Shown: positions 8,478 to 58,405 of the stretch, one piece after another
How the letters are laid out: the number at the start of each line of letters is the position of its first letter
How positions within the stretch are numbered: position 1 is the first letter of the stretch
NCBI GenBank assembly: GCA_020637495.1
Contig: JACJVV010000001.1
Coordinates: forward strand, 205,082-269,081
Reading direction: 5' to 3'
Source of the DNA: Candidatus Woesearchaeota archaeon
GTDB lineage: Archaea; Nanobdellota; Nanobdellia; Woesearchaeales; JACJVV01
DNA: 64,000 nt
Notes under the pieces: generated by a model
The model's input: the letters and a program-made list of their open reading frames with translations, nothing else
Databases searched by the model: none
What the model was told of the DNA's origin: nothing
Program-made: the position numbers and the translations under genes

Positions 8478-9104
8478 ATGGCAAAAAAAGAAGGTAATGA
8501 AGGACAAATAACTGAAAAAAAGAGTGATTCTGAAAGACTTGAAGAAGGACAGATATTGACAAGGATCATATTAGAGATGCTTGGAGGACCAAAAAACCAT
8601 ATAGAGAAGACTATGGTTGATTATGTTGAAAGCATAAAAAACCATGCGGACTATGATATCATCAAAGAATATATCTCAGATAGCAATGAGCAAGAGGATA
8701 AAAAACTATTTTCATTGTATGCAGAGCTTGAGATATGGTTCAAGGATGCCGAAAAACTATTGGCATTCTGTTTTGATAGTCTACCTTCAAGCATAGAGAT
8801 AATCGAACCAGAGGAATTCAAGTTCAAGTCAAATCAATTTGCTGGATTGCTCAATGACCTTCAGGCAAAACTGCATTTCCTTGACATGTCGCTCAAGAAC
8901 CATAAAGCAGACAAGACAGCTGCAGCACATACATTCAAGACACTGACTGAGAATTTCATAGGTTATTGCCTCAAGAATGGAATGAATGACGCAAAGGGAA
9001 TTGCAAAAACAATAGGTATCGCTGAAGACAAGACTATAAAGATGCTGGATGATCTTGCATCAAAGAGCATCATCAAAAAAGATAACAATAAATATTCTTT
9101 GTGA
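8478..9104 (+). CDS. Hypothetical protein in the position where scpA (kleisin) would be expected
   Basis: 208-aa ORF ending 1 nt before the scpB start. No recognisable motif; weak TATA tatataaatg about 25 nt upstream. Confidence 0.4.
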   Translation: MAKKEGNEGQITEKKSDSERLEEGQILTRIILEMLGGPKNHIEKTMVDYVESIKNHADYDIIKEYISDSNEQEDKKLFSLYAELEIWFKDAEKLLAFCFDSLPSSIEIIEPEEFKFKSNQFAGLLNDLQAKLHFLDMSLKNHKADKTAAAHTFKTLTENFIGYCLKNGMNDAKGIAKTIGIAEDKTIKMLDDLASKSIIKKDNNKYSL

Positions 9105-9105
9105 G

Positions 9106-10473
9106 ATGGATGAGATACTAAGAAAAAAGATTGAAGCCATACTTTTCTCTATTGGGAAGAAGATCCATATAGATGAACTCCTCAGAATGATAAAGGAGAA
9201 GGACAAAGCAAAAGTGGTTACTTGTCTTATCGAGCTCAAGCAGAAATACAATGATAGTGAAGAGAATTCACTTATGATCCTACAAGATGGAGATTATTGG
9301 AAACTTACCATCAAAGACCAATATATCGATGTGGCAAAAGAGATAGGCGTAGAGACTGAACTCAGCAAGACTGTCATGGAGACTCTTGCAGTGATCGCCT
9401 ATAAATATCCAATCCTTCAAAGTGACGTGATAAAGATACGGACAAATAAAGCCTATGATCACATGAAGGAACTAGAAGAATTAGGATACATAATGCGAGA
9501 GAGATATGGAAGGACTAAAAGGATAAAATTGACCCAGAAATTCTTCGAATATTTTGATCTTCCACCAGATAAGTTAAGAGAGAAATTCCATAATGTAGAG
9601 GAGATGGAAAAAGTTATCTCAGATAAGGAGAACCAGATACATGAGATAAATGAGAAGAAGAAAGAGCTTATTGAACAACAAGATAGGGAGTCAAAAGCCC
9701 TTGAAGGAAGGAATATCTACATGGAGAACCTAGGGCCGACAGAAGTCATAAGGCATGATGAGAATGGGATAGATGTCATTGAGGGTGAAAAATTAGGCCA
9801 ATTAGAAGTGTTCGAAGAGCTCAATGTTCCAAAGAATGATATTAATACTGAGGAAGAAGAGAGAGAAGAAAAAGAGACACCTAGATTAGAGGTAGTAGAT
9901 GAGGACCAAGTAGGAATAGTAAGGAGTGAAGAAGATGAGGATGTAGAGAAAAAAGAAACATCTGAAGATGATGGAAACGATGAGTCGATCAAATCTGAAG
10001 AGGGTGCCAGTCATGATATTGACACAGAAAATATAGATAATGATCAAGGAAATGAAAATGACATACAGGATGAAGGTACCCCTAATGAGCATGCGAAACC
10101 AGACATATCCAATATTGACGAGAATATGAGTAATCTTGAATCAATCCAGAAAGAGCATGCTGCAAATGAACATGAAGAAGAGATCTCAAAAATACAGGAT
10201 GCAAAAGATAATATGAACTCAGGCAGAGAAATCAACCATGATGAGAATGTAGTGAAGAGTAAAGAGGAAGATAAAGAGGAAGATGTCAAAATCGAAAGCA
10301 GGGACTACAACATCCACAGAAAAAAAGAAGAGCTAGACGAAGATAAGCTTTTCAACATGGAAGGTATCCCAAAGGAGATAATGGATAAGATAGAGGAGAG
10401 AGCTGAAGAGATAGTCCATGGTGATGAGGAGAAAGGATTTGAAGAGCCTTTAGATAAATCTTCTGAAGATTGA
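9106..10473 (+). CDS. scpB: Segregation and condensation protein B (ScpB) homologue with a roughly 250-aa acidic low-complexity C-terminal tail
   Basis: Tandem winged-helix signature of ScpB: ILRKKIEAILFSIGKKIHIDEL and TLAVIAYKYPILQSDVIKIRTNKAYDHMKELEELGYIMRE...KFFEYFDL. The tail after residue 200 is E/D/K-rich. Confidence 0.65.
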   Translation: MDEILRKKIEAILFSIGKKIHIDELLRMIKEKDKAKVVTCLIELKQKYNDSEENSLMILQDGDYWKLTIKDQYIDVAKEIGVETELSKTVMETLAVIAYKYPILQSDVIKIRTNKAYDHMKELEELGYIMRERYGRTKRIKLTQKFFEYFDLPPDKLREKFHNVEEMEKVISDKENQIHEINEKKKELIEQQDRESKALEGRNIYMENLGPTEVIRHDENGIDVIEGEKLGQLEVFEELNVPKNDINTEEEEREEKETPRLEVVDEDQVGIVRSEEDEDVEKKETSEDDGNDESIKSEEGASHDIDTENIDNDQGNENDIQDEGTPNEHAKPDISNIDENMSNLESIQKEHAANEHEEEISKIQDAKDNMNSGREINHDENVVKSKEEDKEEDVKIESRDYNIHRKKEELDEDKLFNMEGIPKEIMDKIEERAEEIVHGDEEKGFEEPLDKSSED

Positions 10474-10822: not shown

Positions 10823-13405
10823 ATGAGCGAAGACATAGAAGAAAAGACAGCTGATGATGCTGAGAATATAATCCCCAAAGAGATAGAAGAGGATATGAAA
10901 GAGGCATATCTAAATTATGCCATGTCCTCAATCATAGGCAGGGCCTTGCCTGATATAAGGGATGGTCTAAAACCAGTACATAGAAGGATCCTTTATGCCA
11001 TGCACGATATGGGAATGGCGCATAACAAGCCATTCAGGAAGAGTGCAAGGATTGTAGGAGAAGTATTAGGTAAATATCATCCACATGGAGATAGTGCAGT
11101 ATATGATAGCATGGTGAGAATGGTCCAGGATTTTGCATTGAGATATCCGTTGATAGATGGTCAAGGTAATTTTGGCAGCATAGATGGCGATAATGCTGCA
11201 GCGATGCGTTATACTGAAGCTAGGATGAAGAATGTAGGAGAAGAGCTGCTTAAGGATATAGAGAAAAAAACAGTCACATTCAGGGATAACTTTGATAATA
11301 GCCTAAAAGAACCCACTGTCCTGCCTTCTGCATTCCCTAACTTGCTAGTCAATGGAAGCACCGGTATTGCTGTAGGGATGGCAACAAACATCCCACCTCA
11401 TAATATGTCAGAGATATGCGATGCTGTGATCATGACAATAAAGAAGCCCGATGTTGATGCTTCAGATTTGATGAAAGTAGTAAAAGGACCAGATTTTCCA
11501 ACTGGTGGTATGATACTTGGAGAAACAGGCATTAAGAACGCATATCATTATGGACGTGGAAAAGTCAAGGTAAGAGCCAAGATAGAGATTGAGGAAACTC
11601 AGAAAAGAAGAGCATTAATAGTCGAGGAAATCCCATATCAAGTAAACAAAAGCCTGCTTCTTGAACAGATTGCTGACCTTGTAAAAGAGAAAAAAGTTTT
11701 AGGCATTGATGATCTCCGTGATGAGTCAGATAAAAAAGGAATGAGAGTAGTCATAGAACTGAAAAAAGATGCAAATGAGGAAGTGATAAAGAACCAGCTA
11801 TTCAAATATACTAATCTGCAGGTGACATTCGGGATAATAAATCTTGCAATAGTCAACAATGAACCGAAGATATTGAGCCTTAAGGGCATGATAAGCCATT
11901 ATATCAAACATCGAAAGATAATAGTCACAAGAAGAACACAATTTGATCTGGAGAAGGCTGAGGAAAAAGCCCATATCCTAGAAGGATTGATAATAGCATT
12001 GAATGATATCGACGCTGCTATTGAACTCATCAAGAAAGCTGGATCTGCGCAGGATGCAAGAGAAGGCTTGATGAAGAAGTATAGCATCACTGAGAAACAG
12101 GCAACAGCAATACTTGATATGAAACTCCAGAGGCTGACATCACTTGAACAGGATAAGATAAGGGATGAACATTCGAAACTCATGGAGCTTATCAAGAGCT
12201 TAAAAGAGATACTTGCAAGCGAGCAGAGGATAATGGATATCATCGTAAATGAGCTTGAAGATCTGAAGCAGAGATATGGTGATGGAAGAAGGACACAGAT
12301 CGTCCAGGGACTAGAGAGTGATGAGGATATCGACATAGAGGATCTGATAGACAAGGAAGAGATGGTCATCACAATAACAAATAGCGGATATATCAAAAGA
12401 ATCGCTTTAAGCACATACAAACAGCAGAAACGTGGCGGAAAAGGAATAATCGCTACAGGGACAAAGGCTGAGGATGAAGTCAATGATGTATTCGTTGCAA
12501 ATACGCATGATTACATCCTATTTTTCACGGATAAAGGAACTGTCCAATGGAAGAAAGTCTATCAGCTCCCTGAGGCATCAAGAGTTGCAAAAGGCACATC
12601 AATCGCAAATCTCCTTGAGCTTGACAAAGATACAAATATCTCATCATACATACCTATCTCAGAATTCAAAGAAGATCATTATTTAGTAATGGTCACAAAG
12701 CAGGGAATCGTGAAGAAGACAAACTTATCTGCATACTCAAAACCAAGGAAAGGAGGCATAATCGCTATAAACCTGACAGATGGAGATGAGTTGATAGATG
12801 TATTGCTTACCGATGGTAATAGGCAGATCCTCATAGCGACTGCAAATGGTATGGCTGTAAAATTCAACGAGGCAGATGTCAGGGCAGTAGGCAGGAATTC
12901 CATAGGAGTAAGAGGTATAAAACTTAAAGGCGATGATGGAGTGATAGGGGCAGTAATCGCAAGAGAGCATCTATCATTACTTACTGTTACTGAGAATGGT
13001 TATGGAAAAAGAACAAAGATAAGAGATTATAGATTAATTAACAGGGGTGGAAGCGGTGTCATCAACATAATAACAAATGACAGGAACGGGAAAGTTGTTT
13101 CCATCAAGGAAGTTGATGACGATAATGACATATTATTCATATCAAGACATGGTATTGCCATAAGAATCCCTGCAAAGGATGTTTCAGTCATAGGAAGGAA
13201 TACTCAAGGCATGAGATTGATGAAATTGAAGAGTGAAGATGATAAGGTTGTTGGCGCTACAAAGATAGTCTCTGAAAAAGAGGAAGAACAAGCACTAGTC
13301 AGGGGAGAAGCTGAGAAAAAAGAGAAGATTGAAGAGATAGAGAATAAATTGGAACAAGAGAGCACAGACCTTGTTAATGACATGGATTTTGTAGATAAGG
13401 ATTGA
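10823..13405 (+). CDS. gyrA: DNA gyrase subunit A
   Basis: [34 protein letters not shown], the active-site region [30 protein letters not shown], and the C-terminal beta-pinwheel repeats. AGGAAAG SD-like motif upstream. Confidence 0.95.
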
Positions 13406-13427
13406 TCATATTTGTTTTGAGGTTATT

Positions 13428-14510
13428 ATGGATAAACTGAAATGCATCGGGTTCTGTGGGTTTGGTGTTGAAGATGTCCTTGAAAATGATATCAGGGAGA
13501 TCCTAGGAAAGAAGGTCAAGGTAGAGAAGAATGAAAGATGTTGCATCTTCGAAGCTAATAAAGAGGATATCGCAAGATTTGCATTCATGTGTCAGAGTAT
13601 AGAAAAAGTAGGAGTTCTGCTCAAAAATGGTGAGATTGGGGACATACCAGAGATAGACGTATCAGACATTAAATTCGACATAAAAACCACTTTCTACGTC
13701 GATTGCAGCATAGCAGGAACGAAACCTTACAAAAGCAATGATGTAGTCATGAACGTATCAGAACAGATGATGAAAACGACAAAGAAGAAGGCAGTCTACA
13801 AAGATGCAGGGATTGAGTACAACATTGAGATCATAGGGAATAAATACTTTTTCACAATAAATCTGAGCTCTAAAGAACTCAGCAATAGGGATTACAAGGT
13901 ATTTGCAAACAAGACCTCGTTAAGAGGAACTATAGCATATGCATTATGCAGGATGGCTGATATAAAAGATGGTGAGAAGGTACTTGATCCATTCTGCAGA
14001 AGCGGTGAGATAGGGATAGAGCTGATACATAATGTAATAGGGAAATCCGTCAATCATTATGCAAAGGATAAGTTCCTCTTCAGCAAGATTGACTGGGAAG
14101 TGAAGCTTGATGATGAGGACAAAGACAGCAAGGTCGAAGTAAACCTTTCAGATGCAGGGATGCCTAATATCAAGGCTGCAGAGAAGAATGCAAAGATTGC
14201 AGGAGTCAATAAGAAACTCAATTTCTCAAGAATATTGATTGAGGATCTTGACCTGAAATATGAGAATATAGATAAAATAATAACAAGGCTCCCTACCCCT
14301 GGAAAAGAGACAAAGGGCAAGATACTGCATATATTCAGGCAATTCTTCGAAGTATCTAAAAAGATTTTAAAACCCAAAGGCATTATCCTATGCATTGGCA
14401 CTAATATTGAGGATGCCATAGATATCGCTAAACATAATGATTATGTATTATTGGAAAAAAAGGAGGTGATGCAAGGAAAGGAAGTAATGAGGGTGTATAA
14501 ATTTGGCTAA
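13428..14510 (+). CDS. THUMP-domain RNA methyltransferase (Trm14/RlmL-like, UPF0020 family)
   Basis: N-terminal THUMP-like region, then LRGTIAYALCRMADIKDGEKVLDPFCRSGEIGIE (motif I of N2-G/N6-A RNA methylases). The expected (D/N)PPY motif appears as RLPTPG, so catalytic status is uncertain. Confidence 0.65.
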   Translation: MDKLKCIGFCGFGVEDVLENDIREILGKKVKVEKNERCCIFEANKEDIARFAFMCQSIEKVGVLLKNGEIGDIPEIDVSDIKFDIKTTFYVDCSIAGTKPYKSNDVVMNVSEQMMKTTKKKAVYKDAGIEYNIEIIGNKYFFTINLSSKELSNRDYKVFANKTSLRGTIAYALCRMADIKDGEKVLDPFCRSGEIGIELIHNVIGKSVNHYAKDKFLFSKIDWEVKLDDEDKDSKVEVNLSDAGMPNIKAAEKNAKIAGVNKKLNFSRILIEDLDLKYENIDKIITRLPTPGKETKGKILHIFRQFFEVSKKILKPKGIILCIGTNIEDAIDIAKHNDYVLLEKKEVMQGKEVMRVYKFG

Positions 14511-16497
14511 GCTAGCATCAATACTAAAGAAAATAAGATATTATCTAACAGAATTCTCAGCTCCATTAATTGCATCAGGGATGATTGCATGGGGCACATC
14601 ACATTTTTTCAATCTTAAACCTGCAAATGAAGGAAAAACTATTCATGAAATGCGTCAGGCTGGAAGGATAATTAATTATTCCAAATGCATTGATGATTTG
14701 TGTGATGAAACGGATGAACATATTCATATATATGAAACAGACCCAATAACAAAAAAAATTACAAAGCTACCTGATTTGATATATACTGGAAAATCTGTAG
14801 CAAAACAAGTAGCTGAAAAAACTGCAAATCCAATCTTGATATTTGGTGGAATAATGCTGCTTTACTCTTACAGGCACAGAAAGAAGAATCCATTCATCCA
14901 AGAGAGAAATATTCTTGAAGATATACAATTATATGCAAGTGATTTAACATATAGCATTCTTGCTATCGGGATGCTGTCTCCTGTTTGGATGCATACTGAT
15001 GGAGAAGTCAAGATAAAACTAATAGTAGGAGGAATAGCTGGAGGAATAGGATATAGTACTAATTATACTATTCCAAGAATGGTCAGAAAAAGAATAAAGT
15101 TAGGATACCAAAATTTAGATTTTATTACTGCACCTATAAAAAAATTATGGTTATTAGATTCATATAAAAAAGGTGTGAGTGATGCAATAAATGAGAATGA
15201 TCTAAATAAAGCAGTTAATGAAGCATATCAACTTTCTAAATCCCGTAGCTATCTCAACGAAAGGGAGAAAAAATATGCACAATCAATCATGATGAAAACC
15301 CACGATATCAGACAAGCAGTTAAATCACTATACAGGCTTTTTTCATCAACTGAAAATAAGCACCTATTAAATTTGATTGATGCAGTTTCAAGTTTCTCTA
15401 TAAATTATCAAGTATATCTAGACATAATGAAAGAGGATATGCCTGATAAAGTTGAATATCAAATTATGAGTTTTGCATTGTGCAGTGATGCCGATAAGAA
15501 AGAACAGATTGCTACAGCTATCTATAGAGATAGGAAAAATAAAGGAAAACTTATCAATGTTTCAAAACAAACAAAAAATAAAGTCTATCTTATGGATTGT
15601 GATAGATTAGGGATGACTTTTGCAATCAAAGAAGCAGATGTTGATGAACTAAACAATGAAGTTAAGCAGACATTAGCAATTGATCATAACAAAATTATCG
15701 AATGTTCTGGTTCTATAGTTAATATTGAAAATCTTGTACTTATGGAAGAATTCAGACAAGAAAATTTAGGGTTATTGTGGTATTCTTTTGTTCAAGGTGT
15801 AAGTGGAAGTGATTATTTACATAGTAATGATCTAGATAGGGGAGTTTCTATTTTAAGGAATATATTGAGATTAAATGGCATTGTTTCAAAATATGGTATT
15901 GATCAAGAGGAAGAAAATATTGAAGGAAAAATAAGAAGAGATATAGATAACAGCATGTTTTCTGAAAGACATAAAGGGATTTTTCATGATTCAGTTGGGT
16001 TCCTGACAAAATATGCACACATATTGCCATTACAGTATGATAGAGATGGAAATCCAGATAACCAAATAATAACAGGGGAAAAGATAACACTTATTGATCT
16101 TGACAAGCGTAAGAAAAGCAATATCGCATACTCTGCTGTAAAGACACTAGAGCAAGATACAGTCTTGCCATATGATGAAAGAGGATGGGAAATAAGAAAT
16201 AGATTAATACCATATTATATTGAATCTGCTGGATTTGAAGGAAAGATGCATGATAGGGAACTTTTATGCAATCATCATACGGCTGTTCCATTGAAAGCTA
16301 TAAGTTATTCAGCTTTTGCTAAAGACAAAGAAGGCAGAATGCAAACAATTCTAAGATTTTGCCAAAGTGCTGAATTTGCGTTAGCTAAAATGCTCCAGGA
16401 TTTCAGGAGCTTTTATTCAGATCAAGAGATAATGCAAGCTCAAGCTGTAAGAGAAGTATTTAAAGAACATTTGGCTGGTTCTCAACAAACTATATAA
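14503..16497 (+). CDS. Large uncharacterised protein, N-terminal multi-pass membrane anchor plus roughly 450-aa soluble domain
   Basis: 664 aa with hydrophobic segments in the first roughly 200 aa (LIASGMIAWGTSHFF, ILIFGGIMLLY, ILAIGMLSPVWM, LIVGGIAGGIGY) and no recognisable motifs. Overlaps the upstream methylase by 8 nt. Confidence 0.5.
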   Translation: MAKLASILKKIRYYLTEFSAPLIASGMIAWGTSHFFNLKPANEGKTIHEMRQAGRIINYSKCIDDLCDETDEHIHIYETDPITKKITKLPDLIYTGKSVAKQVAEKTANPILIFGGIMLLYSYRHRKKNPFIQERNILEDIQLYASDLTYSILAIGMLSPVWMHTDGEVKIKLIVGGIAGGIGYSTNYTIPRMVRKRIKLGYQNLDFITAPIKKLWLLDSYKKGVSDAINENDLNKAVNEAYQLSKSRSYLNEREKKYAQSIMMKTHDIRQAVKSLYRLFSSTENKHLLNLIDAVSSFSINYQVYLDIMKEDMPDKVEYQIMSFALCSDADKKEQIATAIYRDRKNKGKLINVSKQTKNKVYLMDCDRLGMTFAIKEADVDELNNEVKQTLAIDHNKIIECSGSIVNIENLVLMEEFRQENLGLLWYSFVQGVSGSDYLHSNDLDRGVSILRNILRLNGIVSKYGIDQEEENIEGKIRRDIDNSMFSERHKGIFHDSVGFLTKYAHILPLQYDRDGNPDNQIITGEKITLIDLDKRKKSNIAYSAVKTLEQDTVLPYDERGWEIRNRLIPYYIESAGFEGKMHDRELLCNHHTAVPLKAISYSAFAKDKEGRMQTILRFCQSAEFALAKMLQDFRSFYSDQEIMQAQAVREVFKEHLAGSQQTI

Positions 16498-16505: not shown

Positions 16506-16805
16506 TTGATTTCTCTGTATATGGAAGTTGATAAGGAATTACTGGAAAAAGTAGCATCTGTAGCAAGATTAAAGCTTACTGATAAGGAGATCGATAAGTT
16601 TGCGCCTCAGATGAAAGAGATATTGGATTTCTTCGGGAAATTGCAAGAAGTAGATACTGAAGGAATAAGACCAAGTTTCCAGCCTATTGAGATAAAGAAC
16701 AGGCTACGTGAAGATGTAATTGTAAATTCGTTAAGCCAGGAAGATGCATTAAGAAATTCTTCTCTAAAGAAGGATGGTTATTTCAAAGGACCTAAAGCTG
16801 TTTGA
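16506..16805 (+). CDS. gatC: Asp/Glu-tRNA amidotransferase subunit C
   Basis: DKELLEKVASVARLKLTDKEIDKFAPQMKEILDFFGKLQEVDTEGI matches GatC. The actual start may be the internal MEVDK. Confidence 0.8.
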   Translation: MISLYMEVDKELLEKVASVARLKLTDKEIDKFAPQMKEILDFFGKLQEVDTEGIRPSFQPIEIKNRLREDVIVNSLSQEDALRNSSLKKDGYFKGPKAV

Positions 16806-16827
16806 CTAAAATATATCAAAGGATAAA

Positions 16828-18168
16828 ATGAGCCACGAAAAAGAAGCTTTGGAAGAAGCAAAGAAGATAAATGAAGAGTATCATTATCTTAACACTATCA
16901 CCGATAAGCCTCTGGAAGGGCATATGCATCAAGGAAAATTGTCAGGATATACTGTCAGTGTCAAAGATGCGATCTGCGTAAAAGATGTAGAGACTACAGG
17001 GGGAAGCGCCATCCTTGATGGATACAAGCCAGTAATTGATTCTACTGTATCAAAAAAAGTAAAATCGCAAGGTGGACTTATCATAGGGAAAACAGCACAA
17101 GATGCATTCGGATTTGGTGGGTTCAGCGTCAATGTTGGCATAGGAAAGAAGATACCGTTGAATCCATTTGACAAGGAAAGGGCATGTGGTGGAAGTTCTG
17201 GGGGATGTGCTGGTTTCACTGCAAAAACAAATCTCAAGCATGTAAGCCTAGCAGAAAGTACAGGAGGAAGCATTGTCTGTCCTGCCAGTTTCTGTGGTGT
17301 TGTTGGGTTATGTCCTACATATGGAAGAGTATCAAGATATGGTCTTCTTGATTATGGAAATTCACTTGACAAAATAGGACCTATGGGCAAGAATGTCAAG
17401 GATACAGCACTGCTCCTAGAGGTAATATCTGGATTTGACAGCAAAGAGAGCACTTGTGCAGATGTAGAGGTGGATGAATATAGTTCTTTTGTCGGAAAAG
17501 ATGTCAAAGGGATGAAAATTGCGCTAATAAAAGAATGCTTCGGTAAGGGCGTAAATGAGAAAGTTGCTGAACAAGTTAATCAAGCGATTGAGAAATTGAA
17601 AGAGAAAGGAGCAGTTATTGAAGAGGTTTCTCTGCCGTTAGTATCTGAGTATGGACTAGCTGTATATTATATCCTTGCAATGTGTGAAGCATCAACCAAC
17701 CTTGCAAAATACTGTGGAATACGTTATGGAAAGATGAAAGATTGTACAGGCAAGGGGTTCAATGAATATTTCTCTGAGATAAGGAGTGAGAACCTGAATG
17801 AGGAGAGCAAACGTAGAATAATGATAGGGACATTCGCAAGGATGGCAGGATTCAGGGATGCATATTACATCAAGGCTGCAAAGATAAGGACAAAAATAAT
17901 CTCAGAATACAAAGAACAATTCGAGAAATATGATGCATTGATATGTCCTACAATGCCTGTCATCGCACCAAAATTCTCTGAGATAGAGAAGATGACCCCT
18001 TTAGAGAATTACATGATGGATATCCTTACTGTCGGACCAAATTTAGCTGGATTGCCACATATTACAATACCAACTGGAAAAGTAGATGGAATGCCTGTTG
18101 GGACAATGCTCATAGCTGATCATTTTGAAGAGAAGAAATTAGTCCAGTTGGGGAGTGCATTAGAATAA
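16828..18168 (+). CDS. gatA: Asp/Glu-tRNA amidotransferase subunit A (amidase signature enzyme)
   Basis: Amidase signature GGSSGGCAGF with the catalytic Ser-cisSer-Lys context; operon with gatC. Confidence 0.9.
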   Translation: MSHEKEALEEAKKINEEYHYLNTITDKPLEGHMHQGKLSGYTVSVKDAICVKDVETTGGSAILDGYKPVIDSTVSKKVKSQGGLIIGKTAQDAFGFGGFSVNVGIGKKIPLNPFDKERACGGSSGGCAGFTAKTNLKHVSLAESTGGSIVCPASFCGVVGLCPTYGRVSRYGLLDYGNSLDKIGPMGKNVKDTALLLEVISGFDSKESTCADVEVDEYSSFVGKDVKGMKIALIKECFGKGVNEKVAEQVNQAIEKLKEKGAVIEEVSLPLVSEYGLAVYYILAMCEASTNLAKYCGIRYGKMKDCTGKGFNEYFSEIRSENLNEESKRRIMIGTFARMAGFRDAYYIKAAKIRTKIISEYKEQFEKYDALICPTMPVIAPKFSEIEKMTPLENYMMDILTVGPNLAGLPHITIPTGKVDGMPVGTMLIADHFEEKKLVQLGSALE

Positions 18169-18752
18169 TGACTAAAATAAAAGAAATCAAGCTTGAGACT
18201 GAGAGATTGATACTTAGAAAGCCATCTGTTGCAGAATGGGATTTTGTGTACAACAATATAACAAAGAACAAAGATTATCCAAGATTCACAACTATCCCTA
18301 TGCGATATACGAAAGAGATGGCGAAAACATGGGTTAAGAAAGTTAGAAAAGAATTTGGAAATGAGAGTTATGTATTCTTTATGACGTTAAAAGAAACTAA
18401 AGATCCAATAGGGAATATGGGATTTAATGAGATAGATAAGAATACTAACACTGCTAAGATAGGATACATCACGTCTAAAGAGTATAGAAGAAAAGGATAC
18501 ACCTCAGAAGCATGTAAGGCCTTAATTGATTTTGGATTCAAGGTATTAAAATTAAATAGGATCAGGATAGAGCATGTCCCTGATAATGAAGGAAGCAAAA
18601 GAATAATCAAGAAAATGGGATTCAAATGCATAGGTCATGAGAGGCAATGCATAAAATCAGGAGATGGAAAGCTAAGGGATCATTTATCCTATGATATGCT
18701 TAGAAATGAGTGGAACCCCAACAAAGTCAGATTAAATAAAAAGATAAAATGA
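18168..18752 (+). CDS. GNAT-family N-acetyltransferase (RimJ/RimL-like)
   Basis: Acetyl-CoA motif A RRKGYTSEACKALIDFGF. Overlaps the gatA stop by 1 nt and the gatB start by 4 nt. Confidence 0.75.
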   Translation: MTKIKEIKLETERLILRKPSVAEWDFVYNNITKNKDYPRFTTIPMRYTKEMAKTWVKKVRKEFGNESYVFFMTLKETKDPIGNMGFNEIDKNTNTAKIGYITSKEYRRKGYTSEACKALIDFGFKVLKLNRIRIEHVPDNEGSKRIIKKMGFKCIGHERQCIKSGDGKLRDHLSYDMLRNEWNPNKVRLNKKIK

Positions 18753-20158
18753 AATTCACAACAGACATAGTAATAGGACTTGAAATCCACATCGAGCTAA
18801 ATACAAATACAAAGTTATTCTGTGGATGTGCCACAAAAGGTTCAGACGAACCCAATAGTAGAGTGTGCCCTGTATGTCTTGGGCATCCAGGAAGCAAACC
18901 TGTGCTGAACAAAAAAGTTGTCGAATTTGCAACAAAGTTAGGATTAGCAATGAATTGTAAAATAGATAAGGAGTTAGTTTTCAGCCGTAAATCATATTTC
19001 TATCCTGATCTGGCAAAGAATTACCAGATCACACAATATGAGCAACCATTGTGCAAGAATGGATCAATGAAATTAAGCAATGGAAAGACTATAGGGATAA
19101 CAAGAATCCATGTCGAGGAAGATCCTGCTGCATTAGTCCATCCAGGGAGCATACATGGAAGCAATTATGTCCTCATTGATTATAATAGATCAGGTAATCC
19201 TTTATGTGAAATTGTTACTGAACCTGATATGGCTTCGCCTGAAGAAGCAAGGGAATTCATGAACAAATTGATCACAATACTGGAATATTTGGAGATATTT
19301 GATCCTGATGCAATAATAAAGGCTGATGCTAACGTCTCAGTGAAGGAATCAGGCTATATCCGAAGCGAGATAAAGAATATCACCGGATTCAAGGAGATAG
19401 AAAGAGCACTAAACTATGAAGTACAACGTCAGAAGAGAGCTGTTGCAGATGGTGAGAAGCTTATACAAGACACAAGAAGCTGGGATGCTGAGAAAGGCAT
19501 GTCAAGCAGGTTAAGGACAAAGGAGACTGAGGATGATTATGGTTACATCATAGATCCAGATCTCGTAATAACTGATATCACAGATGAATTTGTTAAAAAT
19601 ATTAAGGATAATATGCCTGAACTTGCTGACGAGAAGATGGAAAAATTCAAGGAACATGGCATAGCTGATGACAATGCAGAGATAATATCGAAGAATAAGG
19701 ATCTAGCTAAGGTGTATGAATTGCTTGTAAAAGAAATCGATGCAGATAAAGTTTCAAAATGGGCAAGAAGGGACCTTATGAAGGCTGCAAATTACCATAA
19801 GAAGAATGTGGCTGATTTAGACCTAGAAAAAGTTGTGCCTAAATTTGTTTCTGTATTGAAAGCTGAAATCTCTGGTGAAATAAATGCAAAAATCGCTTTC
19901 ATGGGAACTTCAAGCATTGTAGAGGATCCTGAGTTTGATGTGGATAAATATATTGGTGATAACAAGAGCCAAGGGGATGATTCGGCTATAGAAGGATTTG
20001 TCAAGGAAGTCATCTCTGAGCAGAAAGAGAATGTCAGCAAGTACAAGGCTGGCGAAGGGAAAGTTCTTAATTTCTTGGTTGGACAAGTAATGCGAAAAAG
20101 CCAAGGTAAGGCTGACGCTGGGAAGATAAAGGAATTGCTTATCAAGTGCTTACAATGA
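18749..20158 (+). CDS. gatB: Asp/Glu-tRNA amidotransferase subunit B
   Basis: GLEIHIELNTNTKLFCGC...PVCLGHPGS and the C-terminal GatB/YqeY domain. Confidence 0.9.
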   Translation: MKFTTDIVIGLEIHIELNTNTKLFCGCATKGSDEPNSRVCPVCLGHPGSKPVLNKKVVEFATKLGLAMNCKIDKELVFSRKSYFYPDLAKNYQITQYEQPLCKNGSMKLSNGKTIGITRIHVEEDPAALVHPGSIHGSNYVLIDYNRSGNPLCEIVTEPDMASPEEAREFMNKLITILEYLEIFDPDAIIKADANVSVKESGYIRSEIKNITGFKEIERALNYEVQRQKRAVADGEKLIQDTRSWDAEKGMSSRLRTKETEDDYGYIIDPDLVITDITDEFVKNIKDNMPELADEKMEKFKEHGIADDNAEIISKNKDLAKVYELLVKEIDADKVSKWARRDLMKAANYHKKNVADLDLEKVVPKFVSVLKAEISGEINAKIAFMGTSSIVEDPEFDVDKYIGDNKSQGDDSAIEGFVKEVISEQKENVSKYKAGEGKVLNFLVGQVMRKSQGKADAGKIKELLIKCLQ

Positions 20159-53277: not shown

Positions 53278-54492
53278 TTATACATTCAATGAATCTTTAA
53301 GTATCTGTTTTATCTTAACTTTTGATTCATCTGGTATAGATAAGTTAACCTCTCTTGTCCTCCCATACCTTCCTTTTGAGATTATCTTCCCTGTAATTAA
53401 CCCGAGCATATCAAATTCAGCAATAATATCAGAAACACGACGTTGTGTTAATGGTCTAATTGATGTCTCAATACATATTCCTTTGTAGTATTCATATATT
53501 TCTCCTGTAAATATTACTTTCTGTCTTTTATCTGCAATTTTTAAAATGCTATAAAGAACAATCTGATGCTGCTTAGGTTGAGTAGATACCAAATCTATTA
53601 TCCTATCCTTCTCTATCTTCGATTCTGCAAGATCAAGATGTGAGATCATTACTTTCTTACTACCTTCTCTTTCAGCAATCTCGCCTGATACCCGTAAAAG
53701 CTCAAGCGCTCTCCTTGCGTCACCATGATCGCGAGCAGCATAAGCTGCACATTTCTCTATCAAGCCTTGTTCAATAACACCATCTACAAATGCAATATCG
53801 CTTCTTTTTTTCAATATTGATTTGAGCTGAAGAGCATTATATGGTGAAAAAATAAGCTCTTCCTCACTCAAAGAACTCTTGACTCTAGGATCAAGATTAT
53901 CTGAAAATAGTAGGTCATTTGATATACCTATTATAGAGATCTGAGCTTTTTTAAGTTCAGTATTCAATCTTGTCAGATTATATAATATCTCGTCCCCTGC
54001 CTTTTTTACTAATTGATCTATCTCATCGAGGACTAGTATTATAATCTGCTGCTCTTGATCTATTATGTTTATGAATATCTTATATATTTCATCTGTGGGG
54101 AGCCCTGTCGGAGGAACTTCTTTTCCCAATTCCCTTATCAGTTGTGCAATTATCCTATACTCTGTATCTGCAATCTTTTTTAATTTACAATTTATATAAA
54201 GAATTTTTAATGGTATATTATGTGCTTGTGATGTTTCATTAAGCTGGTTCATAGTATATTGTATAGTGAGTGTTTTTCCTGTACCAGTTTTCCCATATAT
54301 AAATATATTAGATGGTTTTTCATTTCTTAAAGCTGATGCTGAAATTTCAGCAATCGTATTAATTTCCTTATCGCGATGTTCTATTGTATCAGGCATATAG
54401 TTTGATTGAAGAAATTGCTTTTGATGAAAAACTGGCTTGTTTTTCATGTATTTTTCAAATACATGAGATAATTGTTTGCTGTTTTTTTCCAT
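53278..54492 (-). CDS. cdc6: Orc1/Cdc6 replication initiator
   Basis: Walker A IYGKTGTGKTLT, Walker B IIILVLDEID, sensor and lid regions, and a C-terminal wH. Confidence 0.9.
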   Translation of the reverse strand: MEKNSKQLSHVFEKYMKNKPVFHQKQFLQSNYMPDTIEHRDKEINTIAEISASALRNEKPSNIFIYGKTGTGKTLTIQYTMNQLNETSQAHNIPLKILYINCKLKKIADTEYRIIAQLIRELGKEVPPTGLPTDEIYKIFINIIDQEQQIIILVLDEIDQLVKKAGDEILYNLTRLNTELKKAQISIIGISNDLLFSDNLDPRVKSSLSEEELIFSPYNALQLKSILKKRSDIAFVDGVIEQGLIEKCAAYAARDHGDARRALELLRVSGEIAEREGSKKVMISHLDLAESKIEKDRIIDLVSTQPKQHQIVLYSILKIADKRQKVIFTGEIYEYYKGICIETSIRPLTQRRVSDIIAEFDMLGLITGKIISKGRYGRTREVNLSIPDESKVKIKQILKDSLNV

Positions 54493-54493
54493 C

Positions 54494-54504
54494 TTCCATT
54501 GGAA
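54494..54504. promoter_or_regulatory. Mini-ORB (origin recognition box) dyad abutting the cdc6 start
   Basis: TTCCATTGGAA perfect dyad 2 nt upstream of the cdc6 ATG, between the putative TATA (tttaaata) and the start. Confidence 0.45.
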
Positions 54505-54551
54505 ATCAAGCTCTTTAAATAATTTATTGTTGTTCTTTATCTGAATCTTTT

Positions 54552-54579
54552 ACCCCACCCTTTTATTTCCTATGGAAAT
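54552..54579 (-). promoter_or_regulatory. ORB element (reverse orientation) at the left border of the origin
   Basis: Minus strand reads ATTTCCATAGGAAAT-aaaa-GGGTGGGG, a dyad followed by a G-string as in euryarchaeal ORBs. Confidence 0.5.
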
Positions 54580-54848
54580 AAAAAAAAAGATGTAACATGG
54601 TTTTTTTGATCAATCTATAATCACCATTAGAAAAGAGAAAATATAGATTAGGATTCATTCTTTTTTTATTTTTTTATTTTTTAACTTGATTTTTTATTTA
54701 TTTATTATTTTTAATATATAAAATAATATAATATAATATATATAATATATAATAAATAATACAATATATATAATAAAAAGCTTAAAAAAATAATTTTTTT
54801 CTTTTTCTTAATTTTCTTTTTTTTAATGCTCTCCAAAAAAATATTAAT
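54580..54848. repeat. Roughly 270-bp, nearly pure A/T block with (ATA/TAT)n microsatellite-like repeats; the presumed duplex unwinding element
   Basis: More than 90 percent A+T, runs such as ataatataatataatatataatatataataaataatacaatatatataat. Flanked by inverted ORB elements. Confidence 0.55.
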
Positions 54849-54872
54849 GTTCCATGGGAAATGGAGGGGACA
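54849..54872 (+). promoter_or_regulatory. ORB element (forward orientation) at the right border of the origin
   Basis: GTTCCATGGGAAAT-gga-GGGGAC, the same dyad-plus-G-string structure as 54552-54579 but inverted relative to it. Confidence 0.5.
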
Positions 54873-54979
54873 CTAACATTGTTATTGAAACAACAATTAC
54901 TTTTTCTAATAATATATTATATTCAACTTTTTATTTTTATTTCAATAGTTTTATATATGGATGTCTAATCAACTTTATT

Positions 54980-55381
54980 ATGGATTATACTCAATTATTG
55001 AAACGGGCACGAGAAGGACTTCCTGAAATAGTTTCTGTAAGGGAAAGGTTTGAAGTGCCAAAAGTGAAAGGACACTTACAAGGAAATAGAACTGTTATTA
55101 GTAATTTTTCTATGATCTGTAGCACTTTAAGACGACAACCACAACATATTTTAAAATATCTCCTTAAAGAGCTAGCAACTTCAGGTGAGATAAAAAATAA
55201 TTTACTAGTCTTTAATAGGAAACTATCATCATTAGCAATAAATCAAAAAGTTCGTCAATATACTAATATGTATGTGCTTTGCACAGAATGTGGGAAACCA
55301 GATACAAAAATCCTAATTGAAGGCAATATAAGTTATCTTAAATGTCAAGCCTGTGGCGCAAAACATCATATCAAAAATTAA
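54980..55381 (+). CDS. Translation initiation factor aIF2 beta subunit
   Basis: MDYTQLLKRAREGLPE...ERFEVPKVKGHLQGNRTVISNF...LLKYLLKELATSGE and the C-terminal zinc ribbon CTECGKPDT...CQACG. The track ORF start at 54854 would run into the origin and is rejected. Confidence 0.85.
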   Translation: MDYTQLLKRAREGLPEIVSVRERFEVPKVKGHLQGNRTVISNFSMICSTLRRQPQHILKYLLKELATSGEIKNNLLVFNRKLSSLAINQKVRQYTNMYVLCTECGKPDTKILIEGNISYLKCQACGAKHHIKN

Positions 55382-55494
55382 TTTTTTTTCTAAAATATCT
55401 TCTAATTTTATATAATAAAAAAAAGATTATCCTATAGAAAAGTTTATAAAAGTCGTCCCTTAGTATTGAAATACTTTCAAAAGGAGGTACAAAA

Positions 55495-55728
55495 ATGGTT
55501 GAAGAAACCCTATTAAGACTTACATTAGCAATTATTATCGGTACTCTTGCTGCTATCGTATACAGTTTGAGAATACTTGTTCTTGTTGAGAGAAGAATAG
55601 CAAGAATGGATCTTAACATCGAAAGAATGACACAAAGAATTGCTGCTGAAGAACTAAAGATTGAAGCTGAAGAGAAGAAGATTGAAAAGCAATTGACTAG
55701 TGGTTCTGCTAAAAAAAGACGTAGATAA
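55495..55728 (+). CDS. Small membrane-anchored coiled-coil protein, hypothetical
   Basis: 77 aa; TM LTLAIIIGTLAAIVYSL, then a charged helix and KKRRR tail. GGAGGT SD-like motif 6 nt upstream of the ATG. Confidence 0.4.
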   Translation: MVEETLLRLTLAIIIGTLAAIVYSLRILVLVERRIARMDLNIERMTQRIAAEELKIEAEEKKIEKQLTSGSAKKRRR

Positions 55729-56247
55729 TCATTCTTTATTTTTCATTTCTTTTTCTATATCAGTTATCTCTTTTTTTATATCATTAATCTTTTTAGAATT
55801 GTCTTCTTGATTTAGCAATTCTCCACATTCTGGACATCTATATTCAAAATTTGTAGCTTGTTCAAAATCTATCCTTAAACATTGGTTTATACATGAAAAA
55901 AATTGACCTGCTTCCTCACGTGAAAGCCTATCTTTAAGTGTCTCAAGTTTTTTCTTTTTGAGATCTCCAGAGAGGTATTTTATACGTTCAAGATTCAATG
56001 ACCAATAATATATATACCATCCTTTCTTCTTGTCTTTTTTCCTGATGAAATCTACGAGATTTTGGTTATATAATCTATAAAGTTGATTCCTTATTACATC
56101 AACTGGAATCTTTATTTTAGAGGATATCTGAAATTCTGAACTATTTTTTGAAGTTTTTAGATAATCTACTAAGGGTATTATATCTTCACCTACAGCTTCA
56201 GCTATAACATCCTCTACTATTTTTTTGGTTAACTTAACCTCTCCCAA
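55729..56247 (-). CDS. tfe: Transcription factor E (TFE-alpha, TFIIE-alpha homologue)
   Basis: Winged-helix signature KKGWYIYYWSLN plus a C-terminal zinc ribbon CINQC...CPECG. Confidence 0.85.
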   Translation of the reverse strand: MGEVKLTKKIVEDVIAEAVGEDIIPLVDYLKTSKNSSEFQISSKIKIPVDVIRNQLYRLYNQNLVDFIRKKDKKKGWYIYYWSLNLERIKYLSGDLKKKKLETLKDRLSREEAGQFFSCINQCLRIDFEQATNFEYRCPECGELLNQEDNSKKINDIKKEITDIEKEMKNKE

Positions 56248-56477
56248 ATGCTATCACTCCTGATTTCATTTTTTTGACCTTATAAATTTTATGGTATTTT
56301 TTGGATCTATTTTAACTGGTTATAATCCTTTTATTTTAATTTCTGCCTTGAATAATTCTAATTTATATCTTTAAAGGACTTAAATACCTTAGATAAAGCA
56401 TTACTCCTCATTTAACCTCTAAAATAATAAGTAACTTATTTTGTTACTACTATTTAATGAGTTATTAATTAAGGAGC

Positions 56478-57020: not shown

Positions 57021-57131
57021 GATAGAAGATACATTGTCTAATATAATTATATAATTATTTTATAGGAAATATAATTATTATATATTTAATATAACCATAA
57101 TCTTTATAATATAATAAAATAATTACATTGT

Positions 57132-58010: not shown

Positions 58011-58047
58011 AGGATATTGTTCTTGCTTTTCCTATCATATGATATTC

Positions 58048-58257
58048 TTATATGATAATCTCTTCCATCAGGCTGTCAACTTTGGTCTCCATCCTTCCAT
58101 TTGTTTTGTCAACAACAGCTTCATAATACTCTATAGGCCTTATATCACTGATTATTGTCTGGTGAAGGATTAGATTACTATCCTGCACACGTCTGATCCT
58201 TGTTTGGATCAATGGCATTTTTTTAAGATGTTCCACTTTTTTTTCTGATAAACTCAT
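58048..58257 (-). CDS. Hypothetical small protein
   Basis: 69-aa ORF downstream of the NFACT-N-like gene. No motif recognised. Confidence 0.25.
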   Translation of the reverse strand: MSLSEKKVEHLKKMPLIQTRIRRVQDSNLILHQTIISDIRPIEYYEAVVDKTNGRMETKVDSLMEEIII

Positions 58258-58405
58258 TTATATCACCATCTAAAAATATTAATCCCAGAAATATATCTTT
58301 ATCTATTCCATAATTGAATTAATTCCGACACTCTCAAAAATTTTTCATCAGTCTAACTGTTTTTTTTGTTATCTATAAGAAGAAATTTTTTTATATTCAG
58401 AATAA

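What the first reader, a model, noticed from the sequence alone, without database searches (positions are those of the whole stretch)
13428..16497. THUMP methylase with an atypical catalytic motif, translationally coupled to a 664-aa unknown membrane protein
The two ORFs overlap by 8 nt. The methylase has a recognisable THUMP region and SAM motif I, but the usual (D/N)PPY motif reads RLPTPG, so it may bind substrate without methylating. The downstream protein has about four N-terminal transmembrane helices and a 450-residue soluble domain with no motif I recognise. An RNA-modification-like enzyme coupled to a large membrane protein does not correspond to any described pairing.
Basis: partly seen in the sequence, partly recalled or inferred. 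Interest (0 to 1): 0.55.

Follow-up and report, generated by a model that had tools for sequence, protein, structure and literature searches.

The report
Divergent Trm14-like gene beside membrane kinase
Two adjacent genes of an uncultured Woesearchaeota archaeon encode a tRNA-methylase-like protein whose catalytic motifs have drifted and a very fast-evolving membrane-anchored kinase of the antibiotic/choline-kinase type. They are neighbours only in one small clade, so nothing yet shows that they work together.

Summary
Both ORFs are real. They overlap by 8 nt, and motif IV of the methylase reads RLPTPG where P. furiosus Trm14 has NLPYG.

**Methylase.** It has a full Trm14-type fold (TM 0.80 to PfTrm14). 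Its divergent motifs are not special to this gene. All 80 Woesearchaeota/Nanoarchaeota relatives examined lack the motif IV aromatic residue, and most lack the first Gly of motif I. The deeply conserved partner of this family is gyrA upstream, not the 664-aa gene.

**Distribution.** The family is tiny: 21 representatives among 1.84 billion proteins. It evolves very fast, at 20-29% identity where GyrA is 75-82%.

**Pairing.** The methylase-kinase pair occurs in 8 of 11 informative kinase contexts, all in one clade with conserved ScpB-GyrA-methylase-kinase-GatCAB order. It is absent from 76 other methylase loci, and the overlap is not conserved.

**Verdict.** Two separately interpretable genes in a clade-specific gene order. 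Functional coupling is unproven.

The parts
13428..14510 (+). Trm14/UPF0020-like THUMP methyltransferase-fold gene (360 aa; H6503_01075)
   Evidence: Pfam PF01170 E 3.9e-20. NCBIfam Trm14_Arch aligns over residues 12-358 at 114 bits, below the 280-bit cut-off. AF2 model pLDDT 95.6. Foldseek TM 0.80/0.78 to PfTrm14 3TM5.
13428..13877 (+). N-terminal ferredoxin-like plus THUMP region (about residues 1-150)
   Evidence: Full-length structural superposition on Trm14/TrmN. Weak RlmL_1st hit, E 0.0024. Pfam THUMP PF02926 itself does not hit this protein, but it does hit more distant relatives.
13881..13904 (+). Linker motif SNRDYKVF (R154 invariant; Y156 and F159 nearly so), equivalent to 'HKRPWRVY' of PfTrm14
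   Evidence: Alignments.
13983..14021 (+). Motif I, LDPFCRSGEIGIE. R191 replaces the first Gly and E194 replaces the Thr of MCGSGT.
   Evidence: SAM-contact roles of S228 and T230 and the MxGxG motif are from PMC3367198.
14286..14303 (+). Motif IV position, R287-L-P-T290-P-G, in place of (D/N)-(P/L)-P-(Y/F/H)-G
   Evidence: Pairwise HMMER alignments to 3TLJ (NLPYG) and 3LDU (NPPYG). It sits at the end of predicted strand beta4, E281-287. Family table.
14489..14495 (+). GAGGGTG Shine-Dalgarno-like run 7 nt upstream of the TTG start of the second gene, inside the end of the methylase gene
   Evidence: Read directly from the sequence. Its function is inferred.
14503..14510 (+). 8-nt overlap of the two genes (TTG start ... 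TAA stop)
   Evidence: Not conserved in relatives.
14503..16497 (+). 664-aa membrane-anchored APH/choline-kinase-like protein (H6503_01080)
14554..15072 (+). N-terminal anchor. It has four weakly hydrophobic helices (residues 18-36, 103-122, 141-160, 169-190). A small, low-confidence beta-sheet insert (about residues 56-94) lies between helices 1 and 2.
15115..15540 (+). All-helical linker domain (about residues 205-346), no identified relatives
   Evidence: AF2 secondary structure. Only sub-threshold Pfam DUF hits.
15550..16494 (+). Protein-kinase-like (APH/ChoK-type) phosphotransferase domain, residues 350-664
15628..15660 (+). K376 (beta3 'AIK' lysine) to E386 (helix C glutamate)
   Evidence: Invariant in the 6 syntenic proteins. 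Lys present in 13 of 15 domain sequences. Coordinates checked by translation.
16039..16098 (+). Catalytic loop D513-R-D515-G-N-P-D-N520 and the metal-binding D532 ('LIDLD')
   Evidence: D515 and D532 are invariant, and D513 and N520 are at least 90% conserved, in 21 sequences. The profile aligns this stretch with the catalytic loop and DFG region of PKA, residues 146-185. Coordinates checked by translation.
10823..13405 (+). gyrA, the widely conserved upstream neighbour of the methylase family
16506..20158 (+). gatC, gatA, a GNAT acetyltransferase and gatB, downstream of the kinase gene in this clade

Best explanation
These are two separately interpretable genes sitting in a clade-specific, co-directional housekeeping cluster (MJ0538-like, ScpB, GyrA, methylase, kinase, GatC, GatA, GNAT, GatB).

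**Gene 1.** It belongs to a Woesearchaeota/Nanoarchaeota-wide branch of the Trm14/COG0116 THUMP methyltransferase family. It keeps the complete NFLD-THUMP-Rossmann fold. It also keeps the ribose-binding acid of motif II (D242), the motif III Asp (D275) and the KRxYK linker. It has lost the canonical motif IV (N/D...aromatic) and, in this clade, the first glycine of motif I. The inferred consequence is that it still binds a structured RNA through its THUMP domain. It either methylates by a non-canonical active site or does not methylate at all. The gene is under purifying selection, so it is not a decaying pseudogene.

**Gene 2.** It encodes a four-helix membrane anchor, a helical linker and a cytoplasmic APH/choline-kinase-fold domain with all ATP/Mg2+ phosphotransfer residues intact. 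It is inferred to be an active ATP-dependent phosphotransferase held at the inner face of the membrane. A small-molecule or membrane-associated substrate is more likely than a protein substrate.

**The pairing.** The adjacency and the 8-nt overlap most likely reflect co-transcription in a compact genome, not a dedicated two-protein machine.

**Shown:** folds, motifs, distribution and synteny. **Inferred:** activity, topology, substrate and the lack of coupling.
For: **Methylase.**
- Pfam UPF0020 E 3.9e-20.
- AF2 pLDDT 95.6.
- Foldseek TM 0.80 and E 6.5e-28 to PfTrm14, then TrmN and RlmL.
- Motif mapping onto 3TLJ and 3LDU.
- Family-wide loss of the motif IV aromatic in all 80 species loci, with sub-clade-specific but conserved replacements such as CRSGE with QLPAxG, or FSRDGV.
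- 42-67% identity among the clade shows constraint.

**Kinase.**
- AF2 pLDDT 81.5, above 90 in the C-terminal domain.
- Homologue P0111 passes the Pfam APH gathering cut-off, and APH is the only family hit by several members.
- K376, E386, D515, N520 and D532 are conserved despite 20-29% overall identity.

**Pairing.**
- The kinase gene follows the methylase in the window and in L001, L003, L005, L006, L007, L091 and L092.
- No kinase-family ORF lies within +/-8 kb of the methylase in the 76 non-clade loci returned by the search of species-representative genomes.
- The kinase occurs without the methylase in L088, L089 and L093.
- Junction spacing varies from -26 to +164 nt.
Against: - The methylase-kinase junction is never interrupted in the 8 clade genomes. 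The flanking junctions are broken by insertions: an epimerase between gyrA and the methylase in L003, DUF4234 or PNP/PRTase genes between the kinase and gatC in L003 and L007, and no gatC at all in L092. This hints at some selective linkage.
- No interaction prediction or expression data could be obtained.
- The inference about methylase activity rests on motif logic alone. H263A in TrmN keeps 25% activity, and the literature notes that motif IV is not an acid-base catalyst (PMC3367198 and PMC3177210). An active enzyme therefore cannot be excluded.
- Membrane insertion rests on weak hydropathy in this protein.
- The kinase family search used a single sequence only, so fast-evolving relatives elsewhere could have been missed.
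Confidence: 0.6

Rival explanations
1. Functional module. The Trm14-like protein has become an RNA-binding, non-methylating adaptor. It works physically with the membrane kinase, for example by being regulated through phosphorylation or by bringing an RNA to the membrane.
For: - Adjacency is kept in 8 genomes, including L092 where the downstream gatCAB block is gone.
- Neighbouring junctions suffer insertions while this one does not.
- There is an 8-nt overlap here and a 26-nt overlap in L001.
- The catalytic motifs of the methylase are degenerate.
Against: - The kinase family occurs without the methylase in 3 of 11 informative contexts.
- 76 other methylase loci carry the same kind of degenerate motifs but have no such kinase within 8 kb.
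- The two proteins evolve at very different rates, 42-67% against 20-29% identity. This is not what tightly interacting partners usually show.
- The overlap is not conserved.
Confidence: 0.13
2. The methylase is simply the lineage's ordinary, active tRNA m2G6 (or m2G67) methyltransferase Trm14 with a tolerated variant active site. Nothing about it is unusual functionally.
For: - Best structural match is PfTrm14 over the full length.
- Best NCBIfam model is Trm14_Arch.
- The motif II and III acids and the KRxYK linker are conserved.
- The literature says the exact role of motif IV is uncertain, that chordate homologues vary it, and that TrmN H263A keeps 25% activity.
- It is the only Trm14-like ORF in the 64-kb window.
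Against: - The score is far below the Trm14 equivalog cut-off (114 against 280 bits).
- Both the Asn/Asp and the aromatic residue of motif IV are replaced. The Asn contacts SAM and lies between donor and acceptor; the aromatic stacks on the guanine.
- G227 is replaced by Arg and T230 by Glu in the SAM carboxylate/methionine pocket (roles).
- Across 80 species the motif IV positions vary freely (N, Q, H, R, K, S, I, Y, F at the first position), which is unlike a conserved catalytic site.
Confidence: 0.3
3. The 664-aa protein is a receptor-type protein kinase. An extracytoplasmic loop senses a signal and the cytoplasmic kinase phosphorylates proteins. It is not a small-molecule kinase.
For: - The domain profile's best sequence matches in the PDB are Hanks-type kinases: PknB-like 4EQM at E 2.6e-4 and PKA at E 7e-3, in register at the catalytic loop.
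- One member weakly matches Bud32, E 7.7e-4.
- The architecture is an anchor with an external loop followed by a kinase.
- One family member matches the TolB beta-propeller model (E 4e-6). This is probably the distant 1025-aa member P0125, whose kinase domain lies at residues 637-1014, but which member gave the match was not checked.
Against: - The only Pfam family passing its cut-off is APH.
- The helical C-terminal sub-domain is of the APH/ChoK type.
- The external loop is short and modelled with low confidence (pLDDT 49-69).
Confidence: 0.25
4. The 664-aa ORF is lineage-specific filler, meaning a decaying or non-functional gene.
For: - Very low GC3 (0.215 against 0.31-0.44 in neighbours) and extreme divergence.
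- No Pfam hit for this sequence itself.
- Only 21 relatives among 1.84 billion representatives.
Against: - The full-length ORF is kept at 619-677 aa in at least 11 genomes.
- The catalytic Lys, Glu, Asp, Asn and Asp, and further residues (R536, E550, R565, K598), are invariant or nearly so against a 20-29% identity background.
- The predicted fold is confident.
Confidence: 0.03

Closest known systems
Trm14 (archaeal tRNA m2G6 methyltransferase; P. furiosus 3TLJ/3TM4/3TM5, M. jannaschii MJ0438) and bacterial TrmN (3TMA), COG0116/UPF0020
   Same: Same three-part architecture (NFLD, THUMP, gamma-class Rossmann methyltransferase), with TM 0.80 over the whole chain. Shares the KR-x-(Y/W)-(K/R) linker, the motif II ribose-binding acid, the motif III Asp and the 'a..NA..AGV' helix.
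   Different: Motif IV is RLPT instead of N(P/L)P(Y/H). Motif I is CRSGE instead of CGSGT. It scores 114 bits against the 280-bit equivalog cut-off. It belongs to a branch that is genetically tied to gyrA. No activity is known.
RlmL/RlmK (23S rRNA m2G2445/m7G2069) and uncharacterised COG0116 proteins 3LDU, 3LDG, 3K0B
   Same: Best sequence match in the PDB is 3LDU at E 1.1e-11, including the insertion between motifs I and II. Foldseek TM 0.72-0.78.
   Different: Those proteins keep NPPYG and CGSGT. RlmKL carries a second methyltransferase domain that is absent here.
APH / choline-ethanolamine kinase group of the protein-kinase-like superfamily (Pfam PF01636): APH(3')-Ia, APH(2'')-Ia, 3CSV, corramycin phosphotransferase, ChoK, LicA, homoserine kinase II, CcrZ
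   Different: About 10-13% identity to any solved member. The window protein itself misses the Pfam model. The residue before the catalytic Asp motif is Asp (D-x-D-xxxx-N) rather than the usual His. The domain is preceded by a four-helix membrane anchor and a 140-residue helical domain not seen in the solved members listed. The substrate is unknown.
Membrane-associated or receptor kinases of prokaryotes (WaaP/RfaP heptose kinase; PknB/PknD-type Ser/Thr kinases)
   Different: PknB-type kinases have the kinase N-terminal and a single TM helix (from general knowledge, not tested here). In this protein the anchor is N-terminal with four helices, and the kinase is of the APH type.

Membership tests
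Trm14/TrmN (COG0116 tRNA m2G6 methyltransferases) | N-terminal NFLD + THUMP RNA-binding domain | tested here: met
   Full-length Foldseek superposition on 3TM5 and 3TMA, TM 0.73-0.80. NCBIfam Trm14_Arch aligns residues 12-358. Pfam THUMP PF02926 itself is not hit; RlmL_1st E 0.0024.
Trm14/TrmN (COG0116 tRNA m2G6 methyltransferases) | Rossmann-fold UPF0020 methyltransferase domain | tested here: met
   PF01170 E 3.9e-20, 72.8 bits against a cut-off of 22.3.
Trm14/TrmN (COG0116 tRNA m2G6 methyltransferases) | Motif I M/x-C-G-S-G-T (MxGxG) forming the SAM methionine/carboxylate pocket | tested here: not met
   F-C-R191-S-G-E194 aligns with M-C-G227-S-G-T230. CRSGE is fixed in the clade.
Trm14/TrmN (COG0116 tRNA m2G6 methyltransferases) | Motif IV (D/N)-(P/L)-P-(Y/F/H) | tested here: not met
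   R287-L-P-T290 against N293-L-P-Y296. No aromatic residue at this position in any of 80 related species. Definition of the motif from PMC3367198 and PMC3177210.
Trm14/TrmN (COG0116 tRNA m2G6 methyltransferases) | Score above the curated equivalog threshold | tested here: not met
   NF040721 gives 114.1 bits against a cut-off of 280. NF040850 gives 57.7 against 480.
Trm14/TrmN (COG0116 tRNA m2G6 methyltransferases) | SAM-dependent formation of m2G6 (or m2G67) in tRNA | not testable with these tools
   Needs a biochemical assay.
APH/choline-kinase-like phosphotransferases (Pfam PF01636, protein-kinase-like fold) | Bilobal protein-kinase-like fold with a helical substrate-binding sub-domain | tested here: met
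APH/choline-kinase-like phosphotransferases (Pfam PF01636, protein-kinase-like fold) | ATP-binding Lys (beta3) paired with the helix C Glu | tested here: met
   K376 and E386 are invariant in the 6 syntenic proteins. Lys is present in 13 of 15 domain sequences.
APH/choline-kinase-like phosphotransferases (Pfam PF01636, protein-kinase-like fold) | Catalytic loop (H)-x-D-x-x-x-x-N and a downstream metal-binding Asp | tested here: met
   D515 and D532 are invariant and N520 is at least 90% conserved in 21 sequences. The stretch aligns with the PKA catalytic loop and DFG region. The residue two positions before D515 is Asp (D513), not His.
APH/choline-kinase-like phosphotransferases (Pfam PF01636, protein-kinase-like fold) | Sequence match to the Pfam APH model above the gathering score | tested here: inconclusive
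   The window protein gives no hit. Family member P0111 (E 2.7e-31 to the window protein) gives 35.6 bits against a cut-off of 23.2, E 1.1e-8. 6 of 21 members hit at E <= 1.
APH/choline-kinase-like phosphotransferases (Pfam PF01636, protein-kinase-like fold) | ATP- or GTP-dependent phosphorylation of a hydroxyl substrate | not testable with these tools
   Needs an enzyme assay.
Hanks-type Ser/Thr protein kinases | Significant match to protein kinase domains, including an activation segment and APE motif | tested here: inconclusive
   The profile matches the PknB-like N-lobe at E 2.6e-4 and PKA at E 7e-3. Structural scores to protein kinases are lower than to APH/ChoK. The activation segment and APE motif were not examined.

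The most novel reading that the evidence does not exclude
The Woesearchaeota branch of Trm14-like proteins, which has lost the canonical catalytic motifs and is welded to gyrA behind the ScpB segregation gene in most genomes, may no longer be a tRNA methylase. It could be an RNA- or nucleic-acid-binding factor acting with the chromosome maintenance machinery. In this clade it would have recruited a rapidly evolving membrane-anchored APH-type kinase, giving a membrane-tethered regulatory trio. Its logic would resemble the APH-fold cell-cycle regulator CcrZ of Firmicutes.
Probability: 0.08. Interest if true: 0.75.

Novelty: new variant of a known kind. Interest (0 to 1): 0.38.

Why it matters
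The finding assigns a fold and a likely chemistry to a protein annotated as hypothetical. It defines a very small, hyper-divergent family of membrane-anchored APH-type kinases restricted to a clade of DPANN archaea. In these organisms, fast-evolving membrane proteins are candidates for host interaction or for nutrient and lipid scavenging.

It also shows that the Trm14-like protein of a whole archaeal lineage has given up the signature motifs of amino-methyltransferases while remaining conserved and tied to gyrA. That is a concrete, testable case of either a pseudo-enzyme or an alternative active-site solution in THUMP methyltransferases.

It does not reveal a new kind of system, and the proposed methylase-kinase partnership remains unproven.

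Tried and rejected
- **Word-indexed homologue searches.** Searches with the 664-aa protein and with a 6-sequence profile returned only the query itself, because the 8000-candidate limit was swamped. The exhaustive HMMER search was needed.
- **Locus searches.** I used the methylase alignment instead and scanned the flanks locally.
- **Structure prediction input.** The alignment of HMMER representatives was accepted.
- **AFDB fold search.** The afdb50 library was unavailable.
- **Direct family scans of the 664-aa protein.** Pfam and NCBIfam gave only sub-threshold, unrelated hits (DUF5968, DUF7660, GrdG), which I reject as noise. phmmer against the PDB gave nothing.
- **Promoter and terminator scan.** Counts were at shuffle level, and the sigma-70 model does not apply to an archaeon.
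- **PADLOC.** No defence-system link was found. The mad2 hit of the methylase is generic methyltransferase similarity.
- **Literature.** No paper links Woesearchaeota with THUMP, or DPANN with membrane APH kinases.
- **'ORF is filler' reading.** Considered and rejected because the catalytic residues are conserved.
- **Alternative ATG start at residue 27.** Considered and rejected, because the upstream residues align with relatives.


Full report

The window comes from a Candidatus Woesearchaeota MAG. The two ORFs are 100% identical over their full length to NCBI proteins H6503_01075 (360 aa) and H6503_01080 (664 aa). ORF 13428-14510 (+) and ORF 14503-16497 (+, TTG start) share 8 nt.

The TTG start is credible for two reasons. 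A GAGGGTG run lies 7 nt upstream. The 26 residues before the first in-frame ATG align with the N-termini of relatives.

The two genes sit in a tight co-directional run: MJ0538-like, ScpB, GyrA, methylase, 664-aa protein, GatC, GatA, GNAT, GatB.

**2. The methylase.**

- Pfam places it in UPF0020/RMKL-like (E 3.9e-20).
- The best NCBIfam model is Trm14_Arch, aligned over residues 12-358. The score is 114 bits against a cut-off of 280.
- An AlphaFold model built on 36 homologues has pLDDT 95.6.
- Its nearest solved structures are P. furiosus Trm14 (TM 0.80, E 6.5e-28), TrmN, RlmKL and uncharacterised COG0116 proteins.

The NFLD-THUMP-Rossmann architecture is therefore complete, although the Pfam THUMP model itself is not hit.

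HMMER alignments to 3TLJ and 3LDU place R287-L-P-T290-P-G opposite N293-L-P-Y296-G and N-P-P-Y-G. They place F-C-R191-S-G-E194 opposite M-C-G227-S-G-T230.

According to the Trm14/TrmN structure paper (PMC3367198):
- N293 contacts the SAM amino group and lies between methyl donor and acceptor.
- The aromatic residue stacks on the target guanine.
- S228 and T230 hold the SAM carboxylate.
- The motif II acid binds the ribose.

Here the ribose-binding acid (D242), S192, L165 and the motif III Asp (D275) are kept. N293, Y296, G227 and T230 are all replaced.

There are caveats from the literature. The TrmN H263A mutant keeps 25% activity, and the exact role of motif IV is described as uncertain. Loss of activity is therefore an inference, not a result.

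**3. The motif change is family-wide.**

A search of species-representative genomes returned 80 loci, nearly all Woesearchaeota/Nanoarchaeota. Together with the loci fetched earlier, 83 non-duplicate sequences including the window's own were aligned. In that alignment no sequence has an aromatic residue at the fourth motif IV position. The first position is N in only about 20 sequences and is otherwise Q, H, R, K, S, I, Y or F. The first Gly of motif I survives in about 20.

Sub-clades carry their own fixed variants. The window's clade has CRSGE with (Q/H)LPAxG, and the window's R287 and T290 are departures even from that. Another sub-clade has FSRDGV.

Conserved throughout are G13, E15, the KRxYK linker, LDPF...IE, the motif II Asp, LD-K and KNAKIAG. 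This pattern indicates a constrained protein with a remodelled pocket, not decay.

**4. The real conserved partner of this family is gyrA.**

Of 73 loci with enough upstream DNA, 58 have gyrA upstream on the same strand. In 50 of those it abuts the methylase frame directly, typically behind the MJ0538-like gene and ScpB. In five of the clade relatives the gyrA stop and the methylase start overlap by 4 nt. In the window they are 22 nt apart.

**5. The 664-aa protein.**

Word-indexed searches found only the query itself. An exhaustive HMMER scan of 1.84 billion representatives found 21 proteins, mostly 619-677 aa. The proteins downstream of the methylase in relatives are homologous to it (E 3e-19 and 7e-35).

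Alignments show the following conservation:
- K376, E386, D513, D515, N520, D532, R536, E550, R565 and K598 are invariant in the six syntenic proteins.
- D515, D532, E550, R565 and K598 are invariant, and D513, N520, R536 and K547 are at least 90% conserved, in all 21 sequences.

This is the Lys...Glu...D-xxxx-N...D signature of kinase-fold phosphotransferases.

The AlphaFold model (21-sequence alignment, pLDDT 81.5, above 90 in the C-terminal 300 residues) matches the following:
- APH(3')-Ia by Foldseek (E 8e-6, TMt 0.59).

At the sequence level:
- Family member P0111 passes the Pfam APH gathering cut-off (35.6 against 23.2 bits, E 1.1e-8).
- APH is the only Pfam family hit by several members, 6 of 21.
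- A profile of the C-terminal domain reaches PknB-like and PKA kinases at E 2.6e-4 to 7e-3, with the catalytic loop in register.

The soluble part is therefore a helical linker (about residues 205-346) followed by an APH/ChoK-type kinase domain (about residues 350-664) with an intact catalytic set.

**6. The N-terminal part.**

Four hydrophobic segments recur at equivalent positions in the window protein and five relatives. In the window protein they are at residues 18-36, 103-122, 141-160 and 169-190. Hydropathy is weak here (1.0-1.2) and clearer in relatives (up to 1.85).

Basic clusters (KKIRYY, RHRKK, RMVRKRIK) fall on the predicted cytoplasmic sides. By the positive-inside rule, which is established knowledge, this fits both termini, and therefore the kinase, being inside. 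No dedicated TM predictor was available, so the topology is an inference.

**7. Is the pairing meaningful?**

| Context | Loci |
|---|---|
| Kinase directly after methylase | window, L001, L003, L005, L006, L007, L091, L092 (8 genomes; methylase identity 42-67%) |
| Kinase-family gene without a methylase | L088, L089, L093 (3 contexts) |
| Uninformative | L090 (contig end) |
| Methylase without kinase within +/-8 kb | 76 other species-level loci |

The junction varies: -8 nt here, -26, +4, +25, +50, +80, +84 and +164 nt elsewhere. Translational coupling is therefore not a conserved property.

One point favours linkage. The methylase-kinase junction is never interrupted in the eight genomes, whereas neighbouring junctions have acquired inserted genes and L092 has lost the gatCAB block. 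With eight related genomes that share the whole gene order, this is weak evidence.

**8. An unexplained feature.**

In genomes where GyrA is 75-82% identical, GatA 70-77% and the methylase 42-67%, the kinase is only 20-29% identical. The genome closest by GyrA (L001) has the most divergent kinase, at 20.6%. The gene's GC3 is 0.215, against 0.31-0.44 in its neighbours. Possible explanations are rapid diversification or replacement by distant alleles. I could not distinguish between them.

**9. Mechanism, as far as the evidence goes.**

*Shown.* Gene 1 has a Trm14 fold with remodelled motifs I and IV. Gene 2 has an APH/ChoK fold with a complete phosphotransfer residue set behind a hydrophobic N-terminal region. 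The pair is clade-restricted.

*Inferred.*
- Gene 1 binds structured RNA through its THUMP domain. It either uses a non-canonical pocket or no longer methylates.
- Gene 2 is an active ATP-dependent kinase held at the cytoplasmic face of the membrane. A small-molecule or membrane-associated substrate is more likely than a protein substrate.
- The two genes are co-transcribed without forming a dedicated machine.

*Rivals.* These are a true functional module, an ordinary active Trm14, a receptor-type protein kinase, and a filler ORF. They are weighed in the structured fields, and the last is effectively excluded.

**10. Novelty and score.**

Both folds are known. Four things are new:
- A lineage-wide THUMP methyltransferase branch without the amino-methyltransferase signature, linked to gyrA.
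- A tiny, hyper-divergent family.
- Its architecture, which joins a four-helix anchor and a helical domain to an APH-type kinase.
- The clade-specific juxtaposition of this kinase with the methylase.

No paper in the searched library covers these. I rate this a new variant of known kinds with moderate interest of 0.38. The proposed unusual partnership is not established, but the component findings are concrete and testable.

Noticed in passing
window 10823-14510; loci L010-L087: The Trm14-like gene follows gyrA on the same strand in 58 of 73 Woesearchaeota/Nanoarchaeota loci with enough upstream DNA. In 50 of them it abuts gyrA directly, and in five clade relatives with called genes the two overlap by 4 nt. 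The usual order is MJ0538-like, ScpB, GyrA, methylase. This linkage is far more widespread than the one in the finding.
   Followed up: partly
window 14503-16497 compared with L001, L003, L005, L006, L007, L091, L092: The kinase-like gene is only 20-29% identical between genomes whose GyrA, GatA and GatB are 63-82% identical. It is most divergent (20.6%) in the genome closest by GyrA. Its GC3 is 0.215 against 0.31-0.44 in neighbouring genes. This suggests very fast evolution or allele replacement.
   Followed up: partly
L088 4610-7687 (P0125): A distant 1025-aa family member carries the kinase-like domain at residues 637-1014, behind a long N-terminal extension. One family member gives a TolB beta-propeller match (NCBIfam E 4e-6). 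This is probably P0125, but that was not checked. P0125 and P0127 are followed by a convergent 297-301-aa gene with a weak MazE/AbrB hit instead of lying next to a methylase.
   Followed up: partly
window 9049-10473: The ScpB homologue has a roughly 270-residue, strongly acidic (E/D/N-rich) low-complexity C-terminal extension. ScpB proteins of relatives are similarly long, at 504-560 aa.
   Followed up: no
window 18168-18752: A GNAT acetyltransferase gene is inserted between gatA and gatB, overlapping or abutting both. The same insertion is present in L001, L006 and L091. In L003 a MazG-like gene occupies that position.
   Followed up: no
window 54001-60000: GC content drops to 0.27-0.31, against 0.35-0.40 in the rest of the window.
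   Followed up: no
window 1-64000: ARAGORN finds no tRNA gene in the whole 64-kb window.
   Followed up: no
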